DNA of 64,000 nucleotides from Candidatus Levyibacteriota bacterium (GCA_043823085.1 JBDRBE010000004.1:133510-197509); one strand, 5' to 3'. Positions 3,040-60,545 are shown, counted from the first letter of the stretch. Numbers and translations: made by a program. The notes: generated by a model from the sequence alone, not told the origin.

Positions 3040-4365
3040 ATGGAAAAGTTTGTTATAAAAGGAGGTAGAAAATTAACAGGGAAAGTCAGTGTTTCCGGGG
3101 CAAAGAACGTTGCGCTTAAGTCATTGGTTGCAGCCTGTTTAACCGATGAAAAAGTTGTAATCGAAAATATTCCGTTGATTTCTGATTTTATGGTTATGGC
3201 AGATATTATCAAAGAATTGGGAGGAGAAATTACTATTAATAATCACACTGCGACAATTCAAGTTAAGAAATTTACCAAAAATAAAGTTTCATTGGAAAAA
3301 GCCGCCGAAATTAGAACTTCATCAATGTTTTTATCACCGCTTTTATTAAGAGTGGGACATGCTGTGATTCCAAATCCGGGCGGATGCAGAATTGGCGCAA
3401 GACCGATAGATAGAATCATTAAAGGATTGCAAAAAATGGGCGTTAAAGTTTCTTACGACAAACAAGACGGATATTTTCATCTTAAGGCGGAAAAAATAAA
3501 AGGAACCAATTATTCATTTGAGAAAAACACACATACAGGGACCGAGACCCTTTTACTTTTGGCAGTTTTGGCGCAAGGCAAAACAATTTTAGAAAATGCG
3601 GCGCAGGAACCGGAAATTGACGAATTAATAGAGCTTCTAAATAAAATGGGCGCAAAGATTAAAAGAGAAAGCACGCGAAAAATTATAATTGATGGAGTTG
3701 AAAAACTCAATAGTGCTAAATTTAGTATTGGACCTGATAGAAACGAAATTATTACTCTTGCAATAGCTGCGATAATAACAAGCGGAGATATTTTTATAGA
3801 GAATATAAGAAAGACTGGTCTTTTGGAATTTCTTAAAGAATTTAATGCGGCAAACGGAGGATATGAAATTAAGAATCAAGGCATGCGTTTTTATTACAAG
3901 GGTGAAATTAATCCGACAAAAATTACAACTTTCCCTTATCCCGGATTTATGACTGATTGGCAAGGTCCATGGTCCGTGCTAATGACAAGGGCAAATGGAA
4001 TTTCAGAAATTCATGAAACAGTTTACGAGAACAGATTTAACTATGTTCAGGAATTAAAAAAAATGGGCGCACATATTGAATTATTCAATCCAAAAGTTAC
4101 AAATCCCGATAAGTTTTATAATTTTAACTTAAAAGATGACAAAAGTAGCTATTTTCACGCAATAAAAATTTACGGCCCAAAAGAATTACATAATGGAATA
4201 GTTAATATTTCGGATTTAAGAGCCGGGGCAACTTTAGTCCTTGCTGCTTTAGCAGCGCAGGGAGAAAGTGTAATTTTTGGAGTTGAACATTTAGACAGAG
4301 GGTATGAACGATTTGAAGAAAGATTAAATAGTCTAGGAGCTCGTATTAAAAGAGCAAAAAATTAA
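3040..4365 (+). CDS. murA: UDP-N-acetylglucosamine 1-carboxyvinyltransferase
   Basis: N-terminal MEKFVIKGGRKLTGKVSVSGAKNVALK, EPT family, 441 aa. Confidence 0.9.
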   Translation: MEKFVIKGGRKLTGKVSVSGAKNVALKSLVAACLTDEKVVIENIPLISDFMVMADIIKELGGEITINNHTATIQVKKFTKNKVSLEKAAEIRTSSMFLSPLLLRVGHAVIPNPGGCRIGARPIDRIIKGLQKMGVKVSYDKQDGYFHLKAEKIKGTNYSFEKNTHTGTETLLLLAVLAQGKTILENAAQEPEIDELIELLNKMGAKIKRESTRKIIIDGVEKLNSAKFSIGPDRNEIITLAIAAIITSGDIFIENIRKTGLLEFLKEFNAANGGYEIKNQGMRFYYKGEINPTKITTFPYPGFMTDWQGPWSVLMTRANGISEIHETVYENRFNYVQELKKMGAHIELFNPKVTNPDKFYNFNLKDDKSSYFHAIKIYGPKELHNGIVNISDLRAGATLVLAALAAQGESVIFGVEHLDRGYERFEERLNSLGARIKRAKN

Positions 4366-4366
4366 T

Positions 4367-5620
4367 ATGCAAGCAGTAATTTTAGCAGCTGGTCTTTCCA
4401 GCAGATTTTATCCATTAGCAAGCGGAATGCACAAATCTATGATAAAGATTTGCGGCAAACCGATTCTCGAGTATACAATCAATGGTTTAAAAATGTCTGG
4501 AATAAAAGATATAGTTCTTGTGGTTAGTTCAACTGGATTAATTGAATCTTATTTTGGCAATGGAGAAAAATTTGGCGTTTCGATGAAATATGTTATTCAG
4601 CCGAAACCACTTGGAATGGGGAATGCGCTACTTTTAGCAGAAAAAAATCTCAAAGGTGATTTTCTTTTATTGAACGCTTCGCATGTTGATATTGGAATTT
4701 TTGCAAAAAAATTAATTGATGCTAAATCAGAAGAAAACAAGTCAATAATTTTAGTCAAAGAAGAAGAAAATACTTGGAAATTTGGAGTTGTTAAGTTGTC
4801 CGGTGATAGAGTGGAGGAATTGATAGAAAAACCAAAAAAAGGAGAAGAGCCTTCAAAATTACGCGTTATCGGGATATATTATTTTTCCAGAAAGTTTTTA
4901 AGCGAACTTAAAAATACACCTCAAGACCATTATCAACTAGAGGCAGCTATTTCTTCTTTTGCGAAAAAAAATTACGTTAAGGCAGTTATTATCAAGGAAG
5001 AAACTATCACCTTAAAATATTCATGGGATTTACTTAGTGTAAAGAATTTTATATTTAAATTGTTGAAAGGTGCGGTTGGAAAAAATGTTAATATCGCCAA
5101 AACTGCGGAAATTATTGGAGATGTTGTTATTGAAGACGGGGCAGAGATTTTGGAAGGCGCAAAAATAAAAGGGCCTTGTTACCTTGGAAAAAATACATAT
5201 GTTGGTAATCACGCGGTTTTGCGAAATAATGTTGACTTAGGAGAAAATAGTGTTGTCGGTGCATACATGGAAGTTAAAAATAGTATTATAATGTCGAATT
5301 CAAAAACGCACGCAGGGTTTATAGGAGATTCAATAATTGACCAAAATTGTAGAATCGGCACACAGTTTTGTACGGCTAATGTCAGACTTGACAGGAGTAC
5401 GGTTAAAGTTGATTTCAAAGGAAAAGTAATAGATACGGGATTAAAATCACTAGGTATGATTCTTGGAAAGAATGTTAGAATCGGCGTTAAATGTTCAACC
5501 ATGCCTGGAGTAACTATTGGTGAGAATGCAATTGTTGGACCATCAACAGTTGTTTCACAGAATGTGGAAGCAAATACAAAATACTATTCAAAATTTCAGG
5601 AAATTATTATAAAAAAATGA
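4367..5620 (+). CDS. Sugar-phosphate nucleotidyltransferase fused to a left-handed beta-helix acyltransferase domain (GlmU-like, archaeal-type)
   Basis: The N-terminal region (ILAAGLSSRF..GKPIL) is a nucleotidyltransferase fold. The C-terminal third carries hexapeptide (I/V-G-x-x-x-x) repeats. Confidence 0.7.
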   Translation: MQAVILAAGLSSRFYPLASGMHKSMIKICGKPILEYTINGLKMSGIKDIVLVVSSTGLIESYFGNGEKFGVSMKYVIQPKPLGMGNALLLAEKNLKGDFLLLNASHVDIGIFAKKLIDAKSEENKSIILVKEEENTWKFGVVKLSGDRVEELIEKPKKGEEPSKLRVIGIYYFSRKFLSELKNTPQDHYQLEAAISSFAKKNYVKAVIIKEETITLKYSWDLLSVKNFIFKLLKGAVGKNVNIAKTAEIIGDVVIEDGAEILEGAKIKGPCYLGKNTYVGNHAVLRNNVDLGENSVVGAYMEVKNSIIMSNSKTHAGFIGDSIIDQNCRIGTQFCTANVRLDRSTVKVDFKGKVIDTGLKSLGMILGKNVRIGVKCSTMPGVTIGENAIVGPSTVVSQNVEANTKYYSKFQEIIIKK

Positions 5621-25395: not shown

Positions 25396-25467
25396 GGATC
25401 CGTAGCTCAGTGGTAGAGCGTTCGGTTCACATCCGAAAGGTCAGAGGTTCGATACCTCTCGGATCCA
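25396..25467 (+). tRNA. tRNA-Val (anticodon CAC)
   Basis: 72-nt manual cloverleaf fold: acceptor ggatccg/cggatcc, anticodon loop ttCACat, T-loop ttcgata. No encoded CCA. Confidence 0.85.
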
Positions 25468-33002: not shown

Positions 33003-34150
33003 TTCTTCTTTTTATTTTTCCTTTAGGAGAAATAACCCGACTCCAATTCTCAAATGGAATTGCATTTACATTAAATGATATCTTTATCGCATTAACAGTA
33101 ACAGTTTGGTTTATATGGAGATTAATCAAAAGAAAGGAGTTAAAAATACCTTTATTAAAGCCAATTATGATTTTTGCCGGGTTCGGTTTATTCTCACTAA
33201 TTATAAATATATTAAACCTAAATTCATTCCAGTTTTTGGTTTCATTCCTTTATCTTTTTAGGTGGTTAATCTACGCGGGAATTTATTTTGTTGTTTTTGA
33301 TTTTGACCCCAAGTTTAAAAGGAAAATTCCAGTTTTTATGATTATTGTTGGGATGATCGTAGTTTTAATTGGGTTTGTCCAATATTTTTTATATCCATCT
33401 TTGCGAAATCTTTATTATCTGGGATGGGATGAACATTTATACCGAATGTTCTCAAGCTTCCTTGATCCAAATTTTTTAGGAGTGTTTTTTGTATTATTAT
33501 TTTTGTTAGTTTTTGAATTTTTCTTTAGAACAAAAGAAAGACAAAAAAAAATATTAATGGCAGTTTTATCTATATTAATTCTTGTTTCTATTTATCTGAC
33601 TTTTTCCAGAAGCGCTTATGCAGCGTTGGTTATTGGATTAACAGTTTTTCTTGTTTTGGAAAATAAGAGGAAATGGAGTTTGGCAATGTTTGGAATTATA
33701 ATTTTGGTTTTAATATTGTCTTTGCGAAATTCTAATATCGAAAATCAAAATTTGTTTAGAACAGCATCAAGTATCGCAAGAATTGATTCTTCGTTAAACG
33801 CAATAAAAATAATTGAAAAAAATCCGATTTTTGGAGTCGGTTTTAATGCTTACAGATACGCGCAGATTAGATATGGATTTCGAGGTGATCAATCATTATT
33901 TTCAGACCACGCCGGTTCGGGAACAGATAATAGTTTTTTGTTTATCCTTGCAACTACAGGTATTTTGGGGCTTAGTGGATATTTATACTTAACATTTTCA
34001 ATTTTTAAAAATTCATTGAAACTAAAATCGACATTGCTAGTTTCCTCATTAACAAGTTTAATAATTGCCAGTTTTTTTATTAACGCCCTTTTTTATCCAT
34101 TTTTAATGCAGTGGGTGTGGATTCTAGTAGGACTTACTGAGAATAAGTGA
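32984..34150 (+). CDS. O-antigen ligase/polymerase-like (Wzy/WaaL family) membrane protein
   Basis: Polytopic protein with an FSRSAYAALVIG-type periplasmic loop motif characteristic of O-antigen ligase/polymerase. Confidence 0.6.
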   Translation: MAIIFLILLFIFPLGEITRLQFSNGIAFTLNDIFIALTVTVWFIWRLIKRKELKIPLLKPIMIFAGFGLFSLIINILNLNSFQFLVSFLYLFRWLIYAGIYFVVFDFDPKFKRKIPVFMIIVGMIVVLIGFVQYFLYPSLRNLYYLGWDEHLYRMFSSFLDPNFLGVFFVLLFLLVFEFFFRTKERQKKILMAVLSILILVSIYLTFSRSAYAALVIGLTVFLVLENKRKWSLAMFGIIILVLILSLRNSNIENQNLFRTASSIARIDSSLNAIKIIEKNPIFGVGFNAYRYAQIRYGFRGDQSLFSDHAGSGTDNSFLFILATTGILGLSGYLYLTFSIFKNSLKLKSTLLVSSLTSLIIASFFINALFYPFLMQWVWILVGLTENK

Positions 34151-34865
34151 CTTTACGTTTCATTTCTGTTTGGTTTCCTGCCGGGTCTGTTGAGTTAATT
34201 ACAATTTCATTATCGCCATTTTGAAGCTTTAAATTGTAAGAATATCTTCCGTTTCCATCGACAATAGCCCAGAATCCGTTAACAGTAACTTTATTTCCCG
34301 CCTCAGTACTGCCGCTTACAATTATAGGATTGTCATCTTTTGAAAAAGATTGTCCTTCGTTTGGTGTGTCAACAGATAAATTTGGCGCATCATTTTTTAA
34401 AGTAATTGTATAGGTTTGGGAAAAATCGCTTTCTTTCTTTTCTTGATTATCGTTTACGACAGCTTTAACTTTAATTGAGTTCTCTCCTTTTGAGAGTATA
34501 ATTTTATCAAACATAAATGAACCGTCGTCTTTGGTGCTTGTTTTGTCAACAATCTCCTCGTTTATATAAAGATCAATTGTTTCATCTTTCGATGCGTTTC
34601 CGGAAATATTTAGTTTGGCGCTGTTCGTAGCATCAAGAATTGGATTAAGAAGAGGAACAGCGATATATGAACTGGAATTTTGAGTTGATGGTTCGGTTTC
34701 TCCCTTTGAACCAGTAGCAAACATGCTTAAATTTACCAAAAGAGGAATGCCAAACTTTACTAATAAAAATATGATGATAATTATGCCAAGAATACTGAAC
34801 CAAAAAGTTTTTGCGCTCTGTTTTTCAAGTCTTCTTGCCAGTCGTGATCTATTCGTATTTTTCAT
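34134..34865 (-). CDS. Membrane-anchored surface protein with two Ig-like (Big-type) repeats
   Basis: N-terminal TM helix, Ser/Thr/Asn/Asp-rich, two ~80-aa beta-rich repeats. The start is moved to Met16 to avoid overlap with tRNA-Thr. Confidence 0.5.
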   Translation of the reverse strand: MKNTNRSRLARRLEKQSAKTFWFSILGIIIIIFLLVKFGIPLLVNLSMFATGSKGETEPSTQNSSSYIAVPLLNPILDATNSAKLNISGNASKDETIDLYINEEIVDKTSTKDDGSFMFDKIILSKGENSIKVKAVVNDNQEKKESDFSQTYTITLKNDAPNLSVDTPNEGQSFSKDDNPIIVSGSTEAGNKVTVNGFWAIVDGNGRYSYNLKLQNGDNEIVINSTDPAGNQTEMKRKVTYSQ

Positions 34866-34885
34866 AAAAATTAATATTTCCCCTG

Positions 34886-34957
34886 AGCCGATGGCGGGAA
34901 TCGAACCCACGACCTAGTGTTTACGAAACACTTGCTCTACCACTGAGCCACATCGGC
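34886..34957 (-). tRNA. tRNA-Thr (anticodon CGT)
   Basis: 72-nt manual fold on the minus strand: acceptor gccgatg/catcggc, anticodon loop ttCGTaa, T-loop ttcgatt. Confidence 0.8.
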
Positions 34958-57065: not shown

Positions 57066-58832
57066 TTAATTTTTTAACCATTTAATAAATTCATTATACT
57101 CCAGCGTATTTAAAATGTCACTTTTTTTTGCCCATCCGCGGCGTGCAACAGATACACCGTATTTCATTAAATCCATTTGAGAAACTCTGTGGCTGTCTGT
57201 GTTTATAATCATTTTTATTCCTTTATCAACAGCTTGCCTAACAAGAACATCAGGAAGATCTAGTCTGTATGGCCAGGCATTAATTTCCAGAGCTATTTTT
57301 CTTTTTTTGCAAAATTCAAAAATTGTTTCCCAATCAAGTTGGATTTCCGGACGCTGATTAATAAGTCTTCCAGTTGGGTGGGCTAATATTTTTACTTTTG
57401 AATTAGATAAACCTTTAATAACTCTTTTTGTCATGTCGCTTTTGCTTAGGGTAAAAGAGCTGTGAATAGCGACAATCATTCCTTCAAGGTAGTCAATGCA
57501 GTTATCATCAATTGATAGTTCTCCATTGGCTAAAATATCTACTTCAAGTAAATTTATTGCTCGAATATATTTTTTACTCGAATTAATTTGTTCAATTTTT
57601 GATTTACGCTTCGCTAAAATAGAACAAATTGACTTTTTTGTGTGTTTTGAAACACTTGGATTATGTTCTGAAAAACCAAGATAGCTGTAGCCCAGTTCTT
57701 TGGCTTTTTTAAGCATTTCTTCCATTGAATTAAGGCCTAGATCATGACTTGGTTCAATGGGAAAGTTAGAATGGACATGTAAATCGCCTTTGATATCGGG
57801 AAGTTCTACTATATTTGGCAGTTTGTGAGAAAGCGATAACTCGATTTCACCTGTATCTTCTCTTAATTCCGGCGGAATCCAATCCATTCCAAGTGCTTTA
57901 TAAAACTTTTCTTCAGAATCAAAATTTTGGATTTTCACTCCTTCATTTTTTTTCTTTATTCCATATTCTGAAAGAGATAGTCCTTTTTTTAAGGCTTGTT
58001 CGCGAAGGTGAATATTGTGATTTTTGCTTCCTGTAAAGTGTTGCAGGAGAGAACCAAAGCTTTCAGGCGGTTGAGTCATAAGATCGACTTGTTTGCCGCC
58101 GGAAACCAGAATTGAGGCTGTTGCAGGGCCTTTTTCGATAATTCTATCCTTATAGGGATAGCTAACAAAGTGGGCAATAACTTCAGCAGGTTTTTTAGTT
58201 GAAACAGCAATATCAATATCACCAACTGTTTCAACCATCCTGCGCAGGCTGCCCAGAGGGTAAGCTTCGATGACGTCTTTTGAAGTTTTTAGATGGTCGA
58301 CAATTTTCTCTGCAATTTCGAAAGCATAAGGCAGGGTCATTCTGCTCTTTTTTTGCTTACCCATTTCATACTCATTTATTGCTTGCAAAATATCTTCCTG
58401 GGACTTTTCGCCAAAGCCTTCGAGACTGGCAATTTTACCTTTGACGGCAATCTTTTTAAGATCTTCGATAACAGTATTTTCATTGTTCAAAGAGAATTCT
58501 TTCACTAATTTATATGCTTTTTTGGGCCCAAAAGACGGGATGTCAAGAAGTGGAAAAATAGATTTGGGAATCCCGGAAAAAACCCAATTAAAATGTTTAA
58601 CTTTGCCCGTTTTAAACAGCTCTTCAAGATGAGATTTAATGGAAGTGCCTATCCCAGGTAGCAAATCAAGTTTATTTTCTTTAAATAGGTCTTTTAATTC
58701 GGAATTTGAGCCCTCTACCGCGTCTGCAGCTCTTTGATAAGCAATTATTTGAAAACGAAATTTTTTCTCATCTTTAATCGTGTAGGCGGCGGCAACATTA
58801 CGAAATAGTTTAGCTATTTGAGAGTTTGACAC
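57066..58832 (-). CDS. polX: DNA polymerase X family protein with a C-terminal PHP phosphoesterase domain
   Basis: Pol-beta-like N-terminus (helix-hairpin-helix, GDIDI-type nucleotidyltransferase motif VGDIDIAVS) plus a PHP domain (HVHSNFP..H..H). Confidence 0.8.
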   Translation of the reverse strand: MSNSQIAKLFRNVAAAYTIKDEKKFRFQIIAYQRAADAVEGSNSELKDLFKENKLDLLPGIGTSIKSHLEELFKTGKVKHFNWVFSGIPKSIFPLLDIPSFGPKKAYKLVKEFSLNNENTVIEDLKKIAVKGKIASLEGFGEKSQEDILQAINEYEMGKQKKSRMTLPYAFEIAEKIVDHLKTSKDVIEAYPLGSLRRMVETVGDIDIAVSTKKPAEVIAHFVSYPYKDRIIEKGPATASILVSGGKQVDLMTQPPESFGSLLQHFTGSKNHNIHLREQALKKGLSLSEYGIKKKNEGVKIQNFDSEEKFYKALGMDWIPPELREDTGEIELSLSHKLPNIVELPDIKGDLHVHSNFPIEPSHDLGLNSMEEMLKKAKELGYSYLGFSEHNPSVSKHTKKSICSILAKRKSKIEQINSSKKYIRAINLLEVDILANGELSIDDNCIDYLEGMIVAIHSSFTLSKSDMTKRVIKGLSNSKVKILAHPTGRLINQRPEIQLDWETIFEFCKKRKIALEINAWPYRLDLPDVLVRQAVDKGIKMIINTDSHRVSQMDLMKYGVSVARRGWAKKSDILNTLEYNEFIKWLKN

Positions 58833-58938
58833 ACATAAATCATATCAGAGCATTGATGTTTCGACAAGACTCTATCAATGCTGAGTGTAATCGAAGCATT
58901 GACTACATTTCAATAATTTGTTAGGATACATTAGCCTT

Positions 58939-58985
58939 GGGGTGGTAGCATTGAGATTAACGACGTCTCCCTGCTCGCCCGTCAA
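58939..58985 (+). other. Degenerate copy of the 5' half of tRNA-Asp (acceptor/D-arm/anticodon-stem), truncated in the anticodon loop
   Basis: ggggtggtagc...gtctccctg is identical to the corresponding segments of the intact tRNA-Asp 53 nt downstream. The D-loop and everything after the anticodon loop have diverged. Confidence 0.6.
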
Positions 58986-58991
58986 AATTTT

Positions 58992-59068
58992 GGGGTGGTA
59001 GCTCAGTTGGTTAGAGCGTCTCCCTGTCACGGAGAAGGTCGCGGGTTCGAGTCCCGTTCACCCCGCCA
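58992..59068 (+). tRNA. tRNA-Asp (anticodon GTC), CCA encoded
   Basis: 77-nt manual cloverleaf: acceptor ggggtgg/tcacccc, anticodon loop ctGTCac, T-loop ttcgagt, 3' gcca. Confidence 0.85.
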
Positions 59069-59167
59069 AAATTAGGCGGGTAAGAGAGAAGATCGCCCCG
59101 CTTAGCGGGGTCGAGCCCGCCTGCAACAAATTTTTAGAATTTATTTTCTGCCTGGAAAGGAGGAAAA

Positions 59168-59797
59168 ATGCCAAGAAGAAAAACCTCTGCCCGAAAATTA
59201 GAAAAATTTGAATTAAAAGAAAACAGATTTCTAAAAAAATTTCAAATAAGTGAGTCCTATATAAGTTTAGTTTTAGGAATAATTGTGGTTGCGTTTATTT
59301 TTGTTGTTGTAATTTTATTCTTTAAAGGCAAAAATATTTTAAATTTTAGTCAACCAGCTCAAGAAACAAGCTCAACAAAAACACAGAACCTTTTGGAAAA
59401 TGGAAGTAGGTCGACATATACAGTTGTCAGCGGCGATACGCTTTGGAGCATTTCAGAAAAAGAATATAATTCGGGTTATAACTGGGTTGATATTGCAAAC
59501 GCAAATAAATTATCAAATCCAGATATTATTGAATCCGGAACAAAATTAATTATTCCAAAAGTGGAAACAAAACAGGTTGAGCCAAGCGCGACGCCAACTC
59601 CAACAAAAGCAATACAAATGTTTGTCATTGATTCAATTACGGGTTCATCCTATACAATAAAAACAGGTGATGACCTTTGGAATATTGCTGTTAGAGCATA
59701 CGGCGACGGATACGCGTGGGTAAAAATAGCGCAAGCAAATAAACTTGAAAATCCGGATTTAATTCATTCTGGAAACACATTAGTAATTCCGCGCTAA
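59168..59797 (+). CDS. Membrane-anchored protein with two LysM peptidoglycan-binding domains
   Basis: N-terminal TM helix. Two YTV(V/I)SGDTLW(S/N)IA...I.PGQ.L.IP LysM repeats. Confidence 0.8.
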   Translation: MPRRKTSARKLEKFELKENRFLKKFQISESYISLVLGIIVVAFIFVVVILFFKGKNILNFSQPAQETSSTKTQNLLENGSRSTYTVVSGDTLWSISEKEYNSGYNWVDIANANKLSNPDIIESGTKLIIPKVETKQVEPSATPTPTKAIQMFVIDSITGSSYTIKTGDDLWNIAVRAYGDGYAWVKIAQANKLENPDLIHSGNTLVIPR

Positions 59798-59872
59798 ACT
59801 AGCGTTTAGTGAATAGCGTCTAGCGTTTAGTTTTGGTATTATAAAATAAGTTCACATTGAGCGAACTGAAAT

Positions 59873-59906
59873 GCGGGATTAGTACAATGGCAGTATGTCT
59901 CCTTCC
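59873..59906 (+). other. Degenerate copy of the 5' half of tRNA-Gly (27/34 identity), ending in the anticodon loop
   Basis: gcgggattagtacaatggcagtatgtctccttcc aligns with gcggtggtagttcagtggtagaatgtctccttcc of the intact tRNA-Gly at 60243. Confidence 0.55.
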
Positions 59907-59955
59907 TCCGCCAAAAGCTAAAGCATTCAGGCGGACCCATCAAAATGCGTAGCTT

Positions 59956-60252
59956 TTGTTGGGCAAGGTTAATAAAATGTATTATACTTATATCTTATTG
60001 TGCCTCGATCTTAAAAACAAAAAGAAAAAATTTTACATAGGTTCAAGCGGCAATTTAAAAGAACGTATTTTTGATCATAAAACTAAAAGTGTGGAAACAA
60101 CTAAGATTTTTGATAAAATAGAGTTAGTTTATTACGAAGCTTGTCCTAACAGAACAGATGCCATAAAAAGAGAAAAGCAATTAAAAACAGGTTTTGGAAG
60201 AGGTTATATTAAAAGAAGACTTGAAAAATATTTAAATGACATGCGGTGGTAG
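59956..60252 (+). CDS. GIY-YIG nuclease-domain protein (free-standing, 98 aa)
   Basis: YYTYILLC (GIY) ... FYIGSSGNLKERIFDH (YIG + Arg) ... EKQLK. The stop codon lies inside the first 10 nt of tRNA-Gly. Confidence 0.7.
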   Translation: MLGKVNKMYYTYILLCLDLKNKKKKFYIGSSGNLKERIFDHKTKSVETTKIFDKIELVYYEACPNRTDAIKREKQLKTGFGRGYIKRRLEKYLNDMRW

Positions 60253-60314
60253 TTCAGTGGTAGAATGTCTCCTTCCCAAGGAGAAGGTCGGCGGTCCGAA
60301 TCCGCTCCACCGCT
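60243..60314 (+). tRNA. tRNA-Gly (anticodon CCC)
   Basis: 72-nt manual fold: acceptor gcggtgg/ccaccgc, anticodon loop ttCCCaa, T-loop tccgaat. Confidence 0.8.
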
Positions 60315-60386
60315 CACACAGTATTATTAGTTTTTATTGATAAAATAGGATAAATGTACGATAATACCTAAATTAAAGAAAATAAT

Positions 60387-60545
60387 ATGAAAAAAGAAAA
60401 TATAAGAGTTGTTGGTGGAAGTTTAAGGTTTATTAGTGGAGAAGTTTATAGAGGCTTAGATACATTTAAAGGTGAGGATTATGTTGCGGGTAAGTTTGTA
60501 AGAGTCGGAAGATTATATTGGTTGTTTCTATGGATCCGTTGGTAA
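60387..60545 (+). CDS. Short ORF (52 aa) that may be the 5' part of a frameshifted gene continuing at 60518
   Basis: ATG with A-rich upstream sequence. It overlaps the next ORF by 28 nt in a different frame. Confidence 0.25.
   Translation: MKKENIRVVGGSLRFISGEVYRGLDTFKGEDYVAGKFVRVGRLYWLFLWIRW

What the first reader, a model, noticed from the sequence alone, without database searches (positions are those of the whole stretch)
58939..60314. tRNA-Asp and tRNA-Gly each have an upstream degenerate 5'-half copy truncated in the anticodon loop; a GIY-YIG nuclease gene fills the gap before tRNA-Gly and its stop codon lies inside the tRNA
At 58939-58985 a copy of tRNA-Asp positions 1-11 and 27-35 lies 53 nt upstream of the intact tRNA-Asp. 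At 59873-59906 a 27/34-identical copy of tRNA-Gly positions 1-34 lies 337 nt upstream of the intact tRNA-Gly. Homology stops in the anticodon loop in both cases. The segment between the Gly half-copy and the intact tRNA consists only of a 98-aa GIY-YIG nuclease ORF, whose TAG stop is nt 8-10 of the tRNA. It also contains an 8-bp inverted repeat (caaaagct...agcttttg) at 59910-59958. This is the footprint expected for a small mobile or homing element that targets tRNA genes at the anticodon loop and carries its own replacement 5' half, displacing the old 5' half upstream. The tRNA-Asp site would then be an older, ORF-less scar of the same process. No integrase is present, so the GIY-YIG nuclease is the only candidate mobility function.
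Basis: partly seen in the sequence, partly recalled or inferred. Interest (0 to 1): 0.7.

Follow-up and report, generated by a model that had tools for sequence, protein, structure and literature searches.

The report
Nuclease cassette that replaces tRNA genes
A 443-base cassette (double DNA hairpin, a tiny GIY-YIG nuclease gene and a complete tRNA-Gly gene) has landed inside the former tRNA-Gly gene of this candidate-phyla-radiation bacterium and left its dead 5' half upstream; it belongs to an apparently undescribed family of mobile units that overwrite tRNA genes across this group.

Summary
The tRNA-Gly 5' copy matches 27/34 and the tRNA-Asp copy 24/35; nothing else in 64 kb exceeds 22. The stop codon of the GIY-YIG ORF is tRNA nt 8-10.

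In 80 genomes carrying homologues of this 91-aa nuclease, 72 have a same-strand tRNA directly after the ORF. It is mostly Gly-CCC, but also Gly-TCC/GCC, Val, Ala, Asn, Thr, Glu and Ile. In 59 of them the stop lies inside the tRNA.

A conserved 56-65-nt double-hairpin module precedes nearly every ORF. It sits in the anticodon loop or D-loop of a dead 5' copy of that tRNA. About 15-20 loci also keep the matching dead 3' half downstream, so an intact tRNA plus ORF is nested inside an older tRNA gene.

In 22 unbiased loci with the same gene order, only one has the ORF and none has the module. Between genome pairs, similarity stops exactly at the cassette ends.

The window's tRNA-Asp is an ORF-less nested replacement of the same design.

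Best reading: a homing-like mobile cassette that brings its own replacement tRNA. The nuclease belongs to the Slx1/UPF0213 structure-specific clade. Cleavage and transfer have not been demonstrated. I found no prior description.

The parts
58899..58927 (+). Native tRNA-Asp promoter (TTGACT, 17 nt, TAGGAT, with TG before the -10). It now sits 11 nt upstream of the dead Asp 5' half.
   Evidence: Promoter scan. The same motif, at the same 11-nt spacing, precedes the intact tRNA-Asp in relatives L088 and L091.
58939..58973 (+). tRNA-Asp 5' pseudo-half (nt 1-35; breaks after the first anticodon base). It is the remnant of the former resident gene, still at its original position.
   Evidence: 24/35 in register with the intact tRNA; nt 1-11 and 26-35 identical. 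It matches the L005-type allele about equally well, 23/35. Absent from all relatives examined.
58974..58991 (+). 18-nt left linker CTCGCCCGTCAAAATTTT between the pseudo-half and the intact tRNA-Asp. CCCGTCAAAAT resembles a module hairpin arm.
   Evidence: Same length and a CCCGCY start as the linkers CCCGCCTGCAnnnnnnAT in the ORF-less nested tRNA-Gly loci L083, L106 and L120. Motif hit.
58992..59068 (+). Intact tRNA-Asp(GTC), the replacement copy nested inside the old gene.
   Evidence: ARAGORN and Rfam, 70.6 bits. Its allele type differs from that of the closest relatives L005 and L009.
59069..59085 (+). Right linker AAATTAGGCGGGTAAGA. GGCGGG (59075-59080) forms an imperfect inverted repeat with the left linker and with the tRNA 3' end CCCGCCA.
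   Evidence: Weak hit of the module model at 59062-59104 and direct reading. Analogous GGCGGG right linkers occur in L083 and L120, and a perfect 13-bp inverted repeat flanks the L126 tRNA-Asp.
59086..59121 (+). Decayed tRNA-Asp 3' pseudo-half (GAGAAGATCGCCCCGCTTAGCGGGGTCGAGCCCGC) of the old resident allele.
   Evidence: It aligns better to the 3' half of the L005/L086-type tRNA-Asp (score 34) than to the window's own tRNA-Asp (score 21).
59834..59842 (+). Extended -10-like TGGTATTAT, 30 nt upstream of the Gly pseudo-half. Candidate native tRNA-Gly promoter, which would now drive pseudo-half, module, ORF and tRNA together.
   Evidence: Similar TTTGGTATAAT-type motifs lie 9-20 nt before tRNA-Gly in empty sites and before the 5' pseudo-half in many filled loci. 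The window's spacing is longer, so this part is weak.
59873..59906 (+). tRNA-Gly 5' pseudo-half (nt 1-34; breaks between the 2nd and 3rd anticodon bases, canonical position 35/36).
   Evidence: 27/34 to the intact tRNA. Nt 1-25 match the intact tRNA-Gly of the closest PolX relative L009 at 23/25, against 18/25 for the window's own tRNA (sequences). A 5' copy is present in most of the 73 homologous loci tested; controls give 0/73.
59907..59963 (.). Conserved double-hairpin module: hairpin 1 at 59907-59935 (TCCGCCAAAAGC..GCATTCAGGCGGA) and hairpin 2 at 59936-59963 (CCCATCAAAATGC..GCTTTTGTTGGG).
   Evidence: Covariance model scores 69.4 bits on the + strand and 56 on the - strand; it is the only full copy in 64 kb. 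In the 35-sequence alignment, 16/19 pairs show double compensatory changes and G-U pairs are almost absent. There are 203 hits in nuclease-anchored loci against none that are significant in 510 kb of PolX-anchored loci.
59964..59968 (+). CAAGG, the continuation of the pseudo-tRNA (nt 35-39) after the module. Its AAGG lies 8 nt before the ATG and probably serves as the ribosome-binding site.
   Evidence: Gapped alignment of the tRNA to the leader. In L034 (tRNA-Gly TCC) the post-module bases are CAAACT, that tRNA's own nt 35-40, so they are tRNA-derived and not a fixed motif. The ribosome-binding role is inferred.
59977..60252 (+). 91-aa GIY-YIG nuclease gene. It has no stop codon of its own; TAG 60250-60252 is U8-A9-G10 of the tRNA.
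   Evidence: Pfam PF01541 at E = 7e-14. 100% identical to P0001, Ca. Levyibacteriota. Y5, Y20, G22, R30 and E54 are invariant and H34 nearly so. AF2 pLDDT 86.6; best fold matches are UPF0213, HIGLE and Slx1. dN/dS is 0.10-0.19 in close pairs.
60243..60315 (+). Intact tRNA-Gly(CCC), the right-hand end of the cassette.
   Evidence: ARAGORN and Rfam, 65.9 bits. Similarity blocks between genome pairs end at the tRNA 3' end. The distance from the GFGRGY motif to tRNA nt 1 peaks at 32 and 35 nt across loci.

Best explanation
Positions 59873-60315 hold a small mobile cassette that has been inserted into, and has functionally replaced, the resident tRNA-Gly(CCC) gene.

The cassette has three parts: a double-hairpin DNA module, a 91-aa GIY-YIG nuclease gene of the Slx1/UPF0213 structure-specific type, and a complete tRNA gene. 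The ORF borrows the first bases of that tRNA for its last codons and its stop.

Shown by comparison. The unit is sporadic. It is always embedded in a tRNA gene. The break is in the anticodon loop or the D-loop. The old 5' half stays behind the native promoter. In many genomes the old 3' half survives downstream. The unit keeps its identity while the flanks differ.

Inferred:
1. The nuclease cuts a cassette-free tRNA gene at an exposed loop of the gene's hairpin-prone DNA.
2. The break is repaired by copying a cassette-bearing donor. The dead 5' half and the tRNA 3' half (or the dead 3' half) serve as homology arms, as in homing.
3. Because the insertion kills the target gene, only cassettes that bring a working tRNA survive.
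4. Recombination between the new tRNA's 3' half and the old 3' half later removes the right-hand remnant, giving the window's form.
5. The pseudo-half, module, ORF and tRNA are co-transcribed from the old tRNA promoter. RNase P cleavage would then strip the stop codon from the mRNA and keep nuclease levels low.

The tRNA-Asp site (58939-59121) is an ORF-less nested replacement of the same design.
For: Family-wide linkage. 72 of 80 homologous loci have a same-strand tRNA at the ORF end: Gly-CCC 48, Gly-TCC 11, Gly-GCC 3, Val 3, Asn 2, Ala 2, Thr, Glu and Ile 1 each. The stop lies inside the tRNA in 59 of them. The ORF-to-tRNA spacing is tight.

5' copies. 34/73 loci reach at least 22/34 identity to their own tRNA, against 0/73 for the 3'-half and reverse-strand controls. 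The copy always matches the tRNA type that follows.

The module. It is conserved with covariation. It is found only with this nuclease. It sits in the anticodon loop in about 22 loci and in the D-loop in about 22.

Nesting. Dead 3' halves lie downstream in about 15-20 loci. The old halves pair with each other, not with the intact tRNA, in L015, L017, L025, L106 and L120. At the window's Asp site the 3' remnant matches the allele of the closest relatives.

Sporadic presence. In 22 syntenic PolX / tRNA-Asp / LysM / tRNA-Gly loci, 1 has a GIY-YIG ORF, 3 are ORF-less nested forms, and the rest are clean, with 14-85 nt between the LysM gene and the tRNA.

Block-limited similarity. L030/L035 share 87.5% over 455 nt, running from the start of the pseudo-half to the tRNA end, while their flanks are 64-68% identical and inverted. 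L067/L072 share 90.8% over 422 nt with unrelated flanks. L024/L029 behave likewise.

Divergence. Nuclease divergence does not track PolX divergence (Spearman 0.20).

The protein. The ORF is under purifying selection. The catalytic residues are conserved and the fold is that of the Slx1/HIGLE/UPF0213 clade.
Against: No cleavage, transfer or circular form was observed. Mobility is inferred from distribution alone.

The protein has no sequence-specific DNA-binding domain. Its closest structural relatives are repair and resolution nucleases, not proven homing enzymes.

The filled allele still contains an intact tRNA that is often identical to the presumed target (13 loci at 34/34). The usual self-immunity of a homing element is therefore missing.

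ORF-less nested tRNAs exist (L083, L106, L120 and the window's Asp), so tRNA replacement may not need this nuclease.

In Microgenomates the cassette sits at one syntenic site across deep divergence. That also fits long vertical retention with repeated loss.

The short tRNA pieces inside the element next to each module, the two-hairpin design and the cassette inversion between L030 and L035 are unexplained.

No co-conversion gradient was seen.
Confidence: 0.6

Rival explanations
1. tRNA genes in these bacteria are replaced by some other process, for example uptake of foreign DNA and recombination of repeat-flanked tRNA mini-cassettes into loops of the resident gene. On this view the GIY-YIG gene with its module is a passenger, or a domesticated structure-specific nuclease, that lives on the tRNA promoter and does not drive the insertion.
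For: ORF-less nested replacements with a constant 18-nt linker occur at tRNA-Gly in L083, L106 and L120 and at the window's tRNA-Asp. Alleles replace each other in both directions: L083 went from C to A, L106 from A to C. Inverted repeats flank other tRNAs in 14/209 cases against 2 in the control. The fold belongs to the Slx1/HIGLE repair-type clade. The ORF is under purifying selection.
Against: The module and the ORF are strictly co-located and always inside tRNA-derived sequence, across eleven tRNA species for seven amino acids. The ORF, module and tRNA are inherited as one block with sharp ends. A host-beneficial gene would not be missing from 21 of 22 syntenic relatives.
Confidence: 0.2
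2. Remnants of integrase-type integration at tRNA genes. The half copies would be old attachment-site duplications left by integrated islands or prophages that have since been deleted, and the GIY-YIG gene would be left-over cargo.
For: tRNA genes are classic integration sites. A large serine recombinase and an FtsK-like gene lie just downstream of tRNA-Gly in the L001/L174 species.
Against: No integrase lies within several kb in the window or in most loci. Here the duplicated part is the 5' portion, or both halves nested, and the insert is only about 370-450 bp with conserved ends. Integrase-type elements, from general knowledge, usually duplicate the 3' part. The module is not found elsewhere.
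Confidence: 0.05
3. Local tandem duplication of the tRNA genes followed by decay in place. The GIY-YIG ORF would have been inserted, or have arisen, in the decaying first copy, with no mobility involved.
For: The 5' copies lie directly upstream, on the same strand. Secondary tandem duplication does occur: L023 has a 130-nt unit repeated twice.
Against: The copies are nested, with the old 5' half on the left and the old 3' half on the right of the intact gene, not tandem. Old and new copies are often different alleles. Relatives lack the copies. The same design recurs at eleven tRNA species for seven amino acids.
Confidence: 0.05
4. A degenerate group I intron with its homing endonuclease gene in the tRNA anticodon loop. 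Such introns are known in Patescibacteria tRNA-Asn and tRNA-Asp at position 35/36.
For: The break at canonical 35/36 in tRNA-Gly is the same site reported for Patescibacteria tRNA introns (PMC13011429). There is a weak, sub-threshold hit to the NCBIfam group I intron endonuclease family.
Against: No Rfam intron hit even at E up to 10. There is no room for a ribozyme core: a 57-nt module, then the ORF, then a complete tRNA rather than a 3' exon. D-loop and post-3'-end positions also occur.
Confidence: 0.03

Closest known systems
Mobile endonuclease ORFs (mORFs) of fungal mitochondria that carry a replacement gene end (Allomyces atp6; Glomus atp6, atp9, cox2, nad3)
   Same: A free-standing endonuclease ORF, GIY-YIG in atp9, is inserted into an essential gene together with a foreign copy of the disrupted gene portion. 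The native portion is left beside it as a pseudo-fragment. The hybrid is co-transcribed, and the distribution among relatives is sporadic (PMC3630166).
   Different: Those elements are in protein-coding genes, replace the 3' end and occur in organelles. Here the target is a tRNA gene in bacteria, the old 5' half (and often the 3' half) is displaced, a complete gene is supplied, the nuclease is a 91-aa single domain, and a conserved double-hairpin module is part of the unit.
Phage T4 SegB and other free-standing GIY-YIG homing endonucleases
   Same: A GIY-YIG gene located among tRNA genes promotes inheritance of itself and the adjacent tRNA region by cutting the endonuclease-less genome (PMC2330249, abstract).
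   Different: From general knowledge, Seg enzymes are larger and carry DNA-binding modules. They sit between genes without duplicating or nesting the target, and they act in phage crosses. No relatives of the present family were found in viral contigs.
Non-intron insertion sequences encoding GIY-YIG proteins in rRNA genes of CPR bacteria
   Same: Same host group. GIY-YIG ORFs lie in insertions that are neither group I nor group II introns, and most insertion sequences in that study sit at tips or bases of stem-loops of a structured-RNA gene (PMC11270868).
   Different: That study covers rRNA genes only and does not treat tRNA. It reports no replacement copy, double-hairpin module or pseudo-halves. 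Whether the proteins belong to the same family was not tested here.
UPF0213 / YhbQ / Slx1 / HIGLE clade of GIY-YIG nucleases
   Same: The best sequence match among solved structures is UPF0213 BH0048 (1ZG2, E = 1e-3). The best fold matches are 1ZG2, At-HIGLE (TM 0.65, rmsd 2.3 A), Slx1 and the UvrC N-terminal domain. It is a single-domain protein of similar size.
   Different: Slx1 and HIGLE are, from general knowledge, branched-DNA repair and resolution enzymes without a fixed genomic address. This family is tied to tRNA genes and a hairpin module, and it has a distinctive basic C-terminal motif LKTGFGRGYIKRRL.
Integrative elements at tRNA genes and tRNA group I introns
   Same: They target the same conserved genes and the same loop (the anticodon loop, 35/36 for Patescibacteria introns) and preserve tRNA function after insertion (PMC13011429).
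   Different: There is no integrase and no ribozyme. Function is preserved by carrying a spare gene, not by restoring a 3' end or by splicing.

Membership tests
GIY-YIG nuclease superfamily | Match to the family profile above the curated cut-off | tested here: met
   PF01541, 52.4 bits against a cut-off of 22.6, E = 6.8e-14.
GIY-YIG nuclease superfamily | Conserved catalytic residues (Tyr of GIY, Tyr of YIG, Arg, His, metal-binding Glu) | tested here: met
   Y5, Y20, G22, R30 and E54 are invariant and H34 is at least 90% conserved in 28 sequences. Assignment of these residues to catalytic roles rests on general knowledge.
GIY-YIG nuclease superfamily | Three-stranded sheet with flanking helices, similar to solved members | tested here: met
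   AF2 model with pLDDT 86.6 and topology strand-strand-helix-strand-helix-helix. Foldseek top hits are 1ZG2, 7WME, Slx1 and UvrC at probability 0.82-1.0.
GIY-YIG nuclease superfamily | Nuclease activity | not testable with these tools
   Needs biochemistry.
Free-standing homing endonuclease gene | Sporadic presence at one conserved target site among related genomes | tested here: met
   1 of 22 syntenic loci has the ORF. It lies at a tRNA in 72/80 family loci.
Free-standing homing endonuclease gene | The element moves as a unit with sharp boundaries, independently of its flanks | tested here: met
   Similarity blocks end at the cassette ends in L030/L035, L067/L072 and L024/L029. There is no co-divergence with PolX.
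Free-standing homing endonuclease gene | Sequence-specific DNA-binding module added to the catalytic domain | tested here: not met
   The protein is 91 aa with a single domain and a basic C-terminal helix only.
Free-standing homing endonuclease gene | The target site is destroyed in the element-bearing allele (self-immunity) | tested here: inconclusive
   The old gene is split, but an intact tRNA that is often identical over nt 1-34 remains (13 loci).
Free-standing homing endonuclease gene | Cleavage of the element-free allele and copying by repair | not testable with these tools
   Needs in vitro cleavage and transfer assays.
tRNA group I intron with endonuclease gene | Group I ribozyme core | tested here: not met
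   No Rfam hit other than the tRNAs at E up to 10 in 58700-60500.
tRNA group I intron with endonuclease gene | The insert is followed directly by the 3' exon | tested here: not met
   The insert is followed by a complete tRNA.
Integrase-type element at a tRNA gene | Tyrosine or serine recombinase gene within the element | tested here: not met
   The only ORF in the 443-bp unit is the nuclease.
Integrase-type element at a tRNA gene | Direct repeat of the tRNA 3' part at the far end of the element | tested here: not met
   The 5' part is repeated upstream. The 3'-half control upstream gives 0/73.
Hairpin-ended single-strand transposons (IS200/IS605, REP elements with their transposase) | Hairpin-forming element ends | tested here: inconclusive
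   A double hairpin with Watson-Crick-only covariation is present. It lies at the left end, and at both ends in only some loci.
Hairpin-ended single-strand transposons (IS200/IS605, REP elements with their transposase) | HUH-type transposase | tested here: not met
   The only protein is a GIY-YIG nuclease.
Fungal-mitochondrial-type mORF with replacement gene part | Endonuclease ORF, plus a carried copy of the disrupted gene part, plus the displaced native part | tested here: met
   All three are present. The polarity and the type of target gene differ.

The most novel reading that the evidence does not exclude
The 91-aa Slx1-like GIY-YIG protein and its double-hairpin DNA module form a new kind of structure-guided transposition or recombination system. 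The nuclease would recognise folded DNA rather than sequence: hairpin loops of tRNA genes as targets, and the module as the element end or circle junction. It would move through a circular or copied intermediate whose junction mimics an anticodon arm. It would act as a natural gene drive that overwrites essential tRNA genes across the candidate phyla radiation, and possibly also the GIY-YIG insertions reported in their rRNA genes.
Probability: 0.15. Interest if true: 0.9.

Novelty: new variant of a known kind. Interest (0 to 1): 0.78.

Why it matters
If this reading is right, essential single-copy tRNA genes in reduced CPR genomes are repeatedly overwritten by a 0.4-kb selfish cassette that pays its way by delivering a spare tRNA. 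Four consequences follow:

- It would explain tRNA pseudo-halves, the mosaic distribution of tRNA alleles among close relatives, and assembly breaks at these loci.
- It extends to bacteria and to RNA genes the strategy of carrying a replacement for the gene part that the insertion destroys, so far known from fungal mitochondrial protein-coding genes.
- It gives the large, function-unknown UPF0213/YhbQ-like clade of mini GIY-YIG proteins a concrete, testable substrate: tRNA-gene DNA and a defined hairpin module.
- The extreme economy of the unit is a compact model for gene overlap between an mRNA and a tRNA. The ribosome-binding site comes from a dead anticodon arm and the stop codon from U8-A9-G10 of the tRNA.

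Tried and rejected
- Rfam scan of 58700-60500 at E up to 10 found only the two tRNAs, with no intron or known motif.
- My first reading of the window's repeats as an H-type pseudoknot was dropped once 80 loci showed two independent hairpins.
- The idea that the post-module CAAGG is just a conserved ribosome-binding site was rejected. In L034 it is replaced by that tRNA's own nt 35-40.
- The idea that the module hairpins derive from local acceptor-stem sequences, as tail-to-head tRNA junctions, was rejected. The same CCCGCC arms occur with Val, Thr, Ala and Asn tRNAs, and they covary independently of the acceptor stem.
- A co-conversion gradient in pseudo-half identity towards the break was looked for and not found.
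- Viral contigs gave one 17-aa fragment only.
- Strain-level empty/filled polymorphism was sought through identical LysM, P0088 and P0036 proteins. All copies were filled and many contigs were too short to tell.
- The single-sequence fold energy of the window's leader is not exceptional (z = -1.5 as DNA, -0.9 as RNA). Support for the module comes from covariation.
- Literature searches combining GIY-YIG, tRNA and Patescibacteria or CPR names found no description of this arrangement. One search on UPF0213/YhbQ names was uninformative.
Full report
**1. What is in the window**

The window is from a Candidatus Levyibacteriota (Patescibacteria/CPR) metagenome-assembled genome. The GIY-YIG protein is 100% identical to an NCBI entry from a 431-kb contig, and the G+C content is 34.7%.

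ARAGORN and Rfam agree on tRNA-Asp(GTC) at 58992-59068 and tRNA-Gly(CCC) at 60243-60315.

- The Asp copy (58939-58973) lies in register with tRNA nt 1-35 and matches 24/35. Nt 1-11 and 26-35 are identical.
- The Gly copy (59873-59906) matches tRNA nt 1-34 at 27/34.
- Per-position chance probabilities are about 2e-8 and 2e-11. No other place in the 64 kb, on either strand, exceeds 22 matches.
- The ORF matches Pfam GIY-YIG at E = 7e-14. The likely start is ATG 59977, giving 91 aa, the usual family length.
- The TAG stop at 60250-60252 is tRNA nt 8-10.

**2. The arrangement is a family trait**

The protein has about 900 homologues (90% clusters), most of them 88-94 aa and, where a source names them, from Patescibacteria. 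Many of their C-termini end in ..RD..RA..RW or ..RE, which is what the 5' acceptor strand of a tRNA followed by TAG would encode.

I fetched 80 genomic loci from species-representative genomes.

- In 72 of them a same-strand tRNA follows within 160 nt of the ORF's stop codon, in most of them directly: Gly-CCC 48, Gly-TCC 11, Gly-GCC 3, Val 3, Asn 2, Ala 2, and Thr, Glu and Ile one each.
- In 59 the stop codon lies inside the tRNA. It is at nt 8 in 40 loci, and at nt 12, 13, 14, 19, 21 or 43 in other reading frames.
- The distance from the conserved GFGRGY motif to tRNA nt 1 peaks at 32 and 35 nt.

So the ORF normally has no stop codon of its own and is physically fused to a tRNA gene.

**3. 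The upstream half-copy is general and matches the local tRNA**

A copy of the 5' part of the downstream tRNA lies 90-160 nt before the ATG in most loci.

- 34/73 loci reach at least 22/34 ungapped identity, and 13 are 34/34.
- The controls, the tRNA 3' half and the reverse strand, give 0/73.
- For Val, Ala, Thr, Asn, Glu and Ile the copy is of that same tRNA.

The duplication is therefore created anew at each kind of target.

**4. A conserved double-hairpin module**

A 56-65-nt element lies between the copy and the ATG in nearly every locus. Its consensus is TCCGCCAAAAGC..GCATTTAGGCGGA followed by CCCGCCAAAATGC..GCTTTTGGCGGG.

- In 35 sequences, 16 of 19 predicted pairs show double compensatory changes. 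G-U pairs are almost absent, about 5 cells in roughly 640.
- A covariance model scores both strands about equally.
- These two features hint at a DNA-level hairpin or cruciform rather than an RNA structure. This is inference.
- In the window the module is 59907-59963, and it is the only full copy in 64 kb.
- The module gives 203 hits in 423 kb of nuclease-anchored loci, and no significant hit in 510 kb of PolX-anchored loci.
- Rfam has nothing like it.

**5. The module interrupts a pseudo-tRNA**

After the module the tRNA copy resumes. Two layouts are about equally common, with roughly 22 loci each:

- nt 1-34, then the module, then nt 35-39 up to about nt 47, then the ATG;
- nt 1-12 (up to nt 22 in some), then the module, then nt 13-28, then the ATG.

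In the window the resumed piece is CAAGG at 59964-59968. In L034 (tRNA-Gly TCC) it is CAAACT, that tRNA's own nt 35-40, so it is not a fixed motif. AAGG, 8 nt before the ATG, probably serves as the ribosome-binding site (inference).

Some loci carry two modules (L002, L012, L045, L023). Three have the module directly after an intact tRNA-Pro (L056, L073, L080).

**6. Nesting: old halves on both sides**

In about 15-20 loci the intact tRNA is followed by a few nt, a short tRNA piece such as CTTCC, a second module, and then a 3' part of a tRNA (nt 35-73, 13-73 or 23-77).

In L015, L017 and L025, and in the ORF-less loci L106 and L120, the upstream 5' half and the downstream 3' half are complementary to each other in the acceptor stem (also in the anticodon stem in L015 and L017). 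They differ from the intact tRNA between them. This directly shows that an intact tRNA, with or without the ORF, was inserted into an older tRNA gene.

**7. The window's tRNA-Asp has the same design without an ORF**

The layout is:

- native promoter TTGACT-17-TAGGAT at 58899-58927;
- 5' pseudo-half at 58939-58973, placed 11 nt after the -10 box, exactly where relatives have their intact tRNA-Asp;
- 18-nt linker;
- intact tRNA-Asp;
- AAATTAGGCGGG;
- a decayed 3' half at 59086-59121, which matches the tRNA-Asp allele of the closest relatives (L005/L086 type) better than the window's own tRNA.

None of about 35 relatives has the Asp half-copy.

**8. Unbiased sampling shows the cassette is sporadic**

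The gene order LemA, PolX, tRNA-Asp, LysM, then module with nuclease, then tRNA-Gly (followed by PyrG in four of them) is shared with about 16 of the nuclease-anchored loci. Their PolX proteins are 48-70% identical to the window's.

I then anchored on PolX in metagenome contigs, a search that is blind to the nuclease. This returned 22 distinct loci with LysM and tRNA-Gly(CCC) in the same order, with PolX 49-66% identical.

- Only one (L126) has a GIY-YIG ORF. It is a 37%-identical relative with two mini-hairpins in the D-loop of a 5' pseudo-half.
- Three (L083, L106, L120) are ORF-less nested replacements with a constant 18-nt left linker, CCCGCCTGCAnnnnnnAT.
- The remainder run from the LysM stop through a promoter-like stretch to the tRNA, with gaps of 14-85 nt in most.
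- L083 replaced allele type C with type A, while L106 replaced A with C.

**9. The unit of inheritance**

- Between L030 and L035, similarity is 87.5% over 455 nt. The block runs from the first base of the 5' pseudo-half to one base past the tRNA 3' end. The flanks are only 64-68% identical, and the cassette is inverted relative to them.
- L067 and L072 share 90.8% over 422 nt, ending at the tRNA-Asn 3' end, with no detectable flank similarity.
- L024 and L029 behave likewise.
- Pairwise nuclease identity does not follow PolX identity. Spearman is 0.20 over 55 pairs; the protein is short, so this is weak evidence.
- The ORF is under purifying selection, with dN/dS of 0.10 and 0.19 in the two informative pairs.
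- In imperfect loci the pseudo-halves have decayed even at universally conserved positions.

**10. The protein**

- Y5, Y20, G22, R30 and E54 are invariant, and H34 nearly so. A basic motif, LKTGFGRGYIKRRL, closes the protein.
- The only solved relative found by sequence is UPF0213 BH0048 (1ZG2, E = 1e-3).
- The AlphaFold model (pLDDT 86.6) best matches 1ZG2, the plant Holliday-junction resolvase HIGLE (TM 0.65, rmsd 2.3 A), Slx1 and the UvrC N-terminal domain.
- There is no extra DNA-binding domain.

It is a reasonable inference that this enzyme recognises DNA shape rather than sequence. That would fit insertion points in the two hairpin loops of tRNA genes of many different sequences.

**11. 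Proposed mechanism**

Shown by comparison:

- the cassette is sporadic and is always in a tRNA gene;
- it is nested in the old gene at a loop;
- it is inherited as the block from the pseudo-half to the tRNA end.

Inferred:

- the nuclease breaks a cassette-free tRNA gene;
- repair copies a cassette-bearing donor, using the tRNA-derived sequences as homology arms;
- the carried tRNA rescues the otherwise lethal disruption;
- recombination between direct repeats later trims the right-hand remnant, giving the window's Gly form;
- recombination between the pseudo-half and the tRNA 5' half would remove the cassette altogether.

The full design (old 5' half, module, short tRNA piece, ORF, tRNA, short tRNA piece, module, old 3' half) is also what break repair with crossover against a circular copy would produce. 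This is speculative.

Co-transcription from the old promoter, and loss of the stop codon on RNase P cleavage, are further untested inferences.

**12. Weak points**

- The filled allele keeps an intact, often identical, target.
- ORF-less nested tRNAs exist.
- The short internal tRNA pieces, the two-hairpin design and the cassette inversion are unexplained.
- Nothing has been shown biochemically.

I put 0.6 on the nuclease-driven mobile cassette and 0.2 on the nuclease being a passenger of another tRNA-replacement process. The remainder goes to integrase remnants, tandem decay and a degenerate intron.

**13. Comparison with what is known, and novelty**

- The nearest mechanistic precedent is the mobile endonuclease ORF of fungal mitochondria. 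It inserts into atp6, atp9, cox2 or nad3 while carrying a foreign replacement of the gene's 3' end, and leaves the native end as a pseudo-fragment (PMC3630166).
- T4 SegB is a GIY-YIG homing enzyme within a tRNA gene cluster (PMC2330249).
- CPR rRNA genes carry non-intron insertions encoding GIY-YIG proteins; most insertion sequences in that study lie at stem-loop tips or bases (PMC11270868).
- Patescibacteria tRNA-Asn and tRNA-Asp carry group I introns at 35/36 (PMC13011429).
- None of these describes a bacterial tRNA-replacing cassette with this module, and targeted literature searches found no such description.

I classify it as a new variant of a known kind, the free-standing homing-type endonuclease cassette. 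There is a minority chance that the hairpin-plus-mini-nuclease system works by a new mechanism.

Noticed in passing
L174-L178, about 3350-5100 (same species as L001): A large serine recombinase (Resolvase, Recombinase and Zn-ribbon domains; 577 aa) and an FtsK/SpoIIIE gene lie immediately downstream of the tRNA-Gly cassette. In L179 a different gene occupies that place. This suggests a separate integrative element that uses the same tRNA-Gly region.
   Followed up: no
L044 tRNA-Ser, L078 tRNA-Pro and tRNA-Phe, L126 tRNA-Asp, L037 tRNA-Gly: Inverted repeats of 13-14 bp directly flank several intact tRNA genes. Overall, 14/209 tRNAs have a G+C-containing flanking repeat of at least 9 bp, against 2 in shuffled controls. 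They could be leader-trailer processing stems or the ends of tRNA mini-cassettes.
   Followed up: partly
L003, L049, L051, L162, L163 and other short contigs: Many assemblies break inside or right after the GIY-YIG ORF, at the tRNA junction. The two Logan contigs of the window's own species run only from near tRNA-Asp to the start of tRNA-Gly. This is consistent with repeats or allele heterogeneity at these loci.
   Followed up: no
L009 and L005, intact tRNA-Gly: The anticodon stem pairs CTACC with GGTGG through a G-U pair, whereas relatives have the perfect pairs CTACC/GGTAG or CCACC/GGTGG. These tRNAs may be chimeras of two alleles joined in the anticodon loop.
   Followed up: no
L030 vs L035, 2886-3340: The 455-bp cassette, including the single tRNA-Gly gene, is inverted relative to otherwise collinear neighbouring genes.
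   Followed up: partly
L016 about 2790-2925; L002, L012, L045, L023 leaders: There are stacked remnants. L016 has two successive different 5' pseudo-halves. Several loci have one module in the D-loop and another in the anticodon loop of the same pseudo-tRNA. L023 has a 130-nt unit (3' half, spacer, module) repeated in tandem. This suggests repeated rounds of invasion.
   Followed up: partly
window 59097-59111: In the decayed Asp 3' half the T-arm has been replaced by a perfect hairpin, CCCCGC-TTA-GCGGGG.
   Followed up: no
window 34885-34957 (- strand) and ORF 34134-34910: The mechanically listed 258-aa ORF, with a GTG start, overlaps the 3' end of tRNA-Thr(CGT) by 26 nt. The start is probably mis-set, and no pseudo-half or module lies near this tRNA or near tRNA-Val at 25396.
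   Followed up: partly
L086, L120, L126 downstream of tRNA-Asp: The 3' end of tRNA-Asp (CCCGCC) pairs with a downstream GGCGGG, followed by CAAGCCCGC or by a longer 3' remnant. So tRNA-Asp replacement scars occur in other lineages too.
   Followed up: partly
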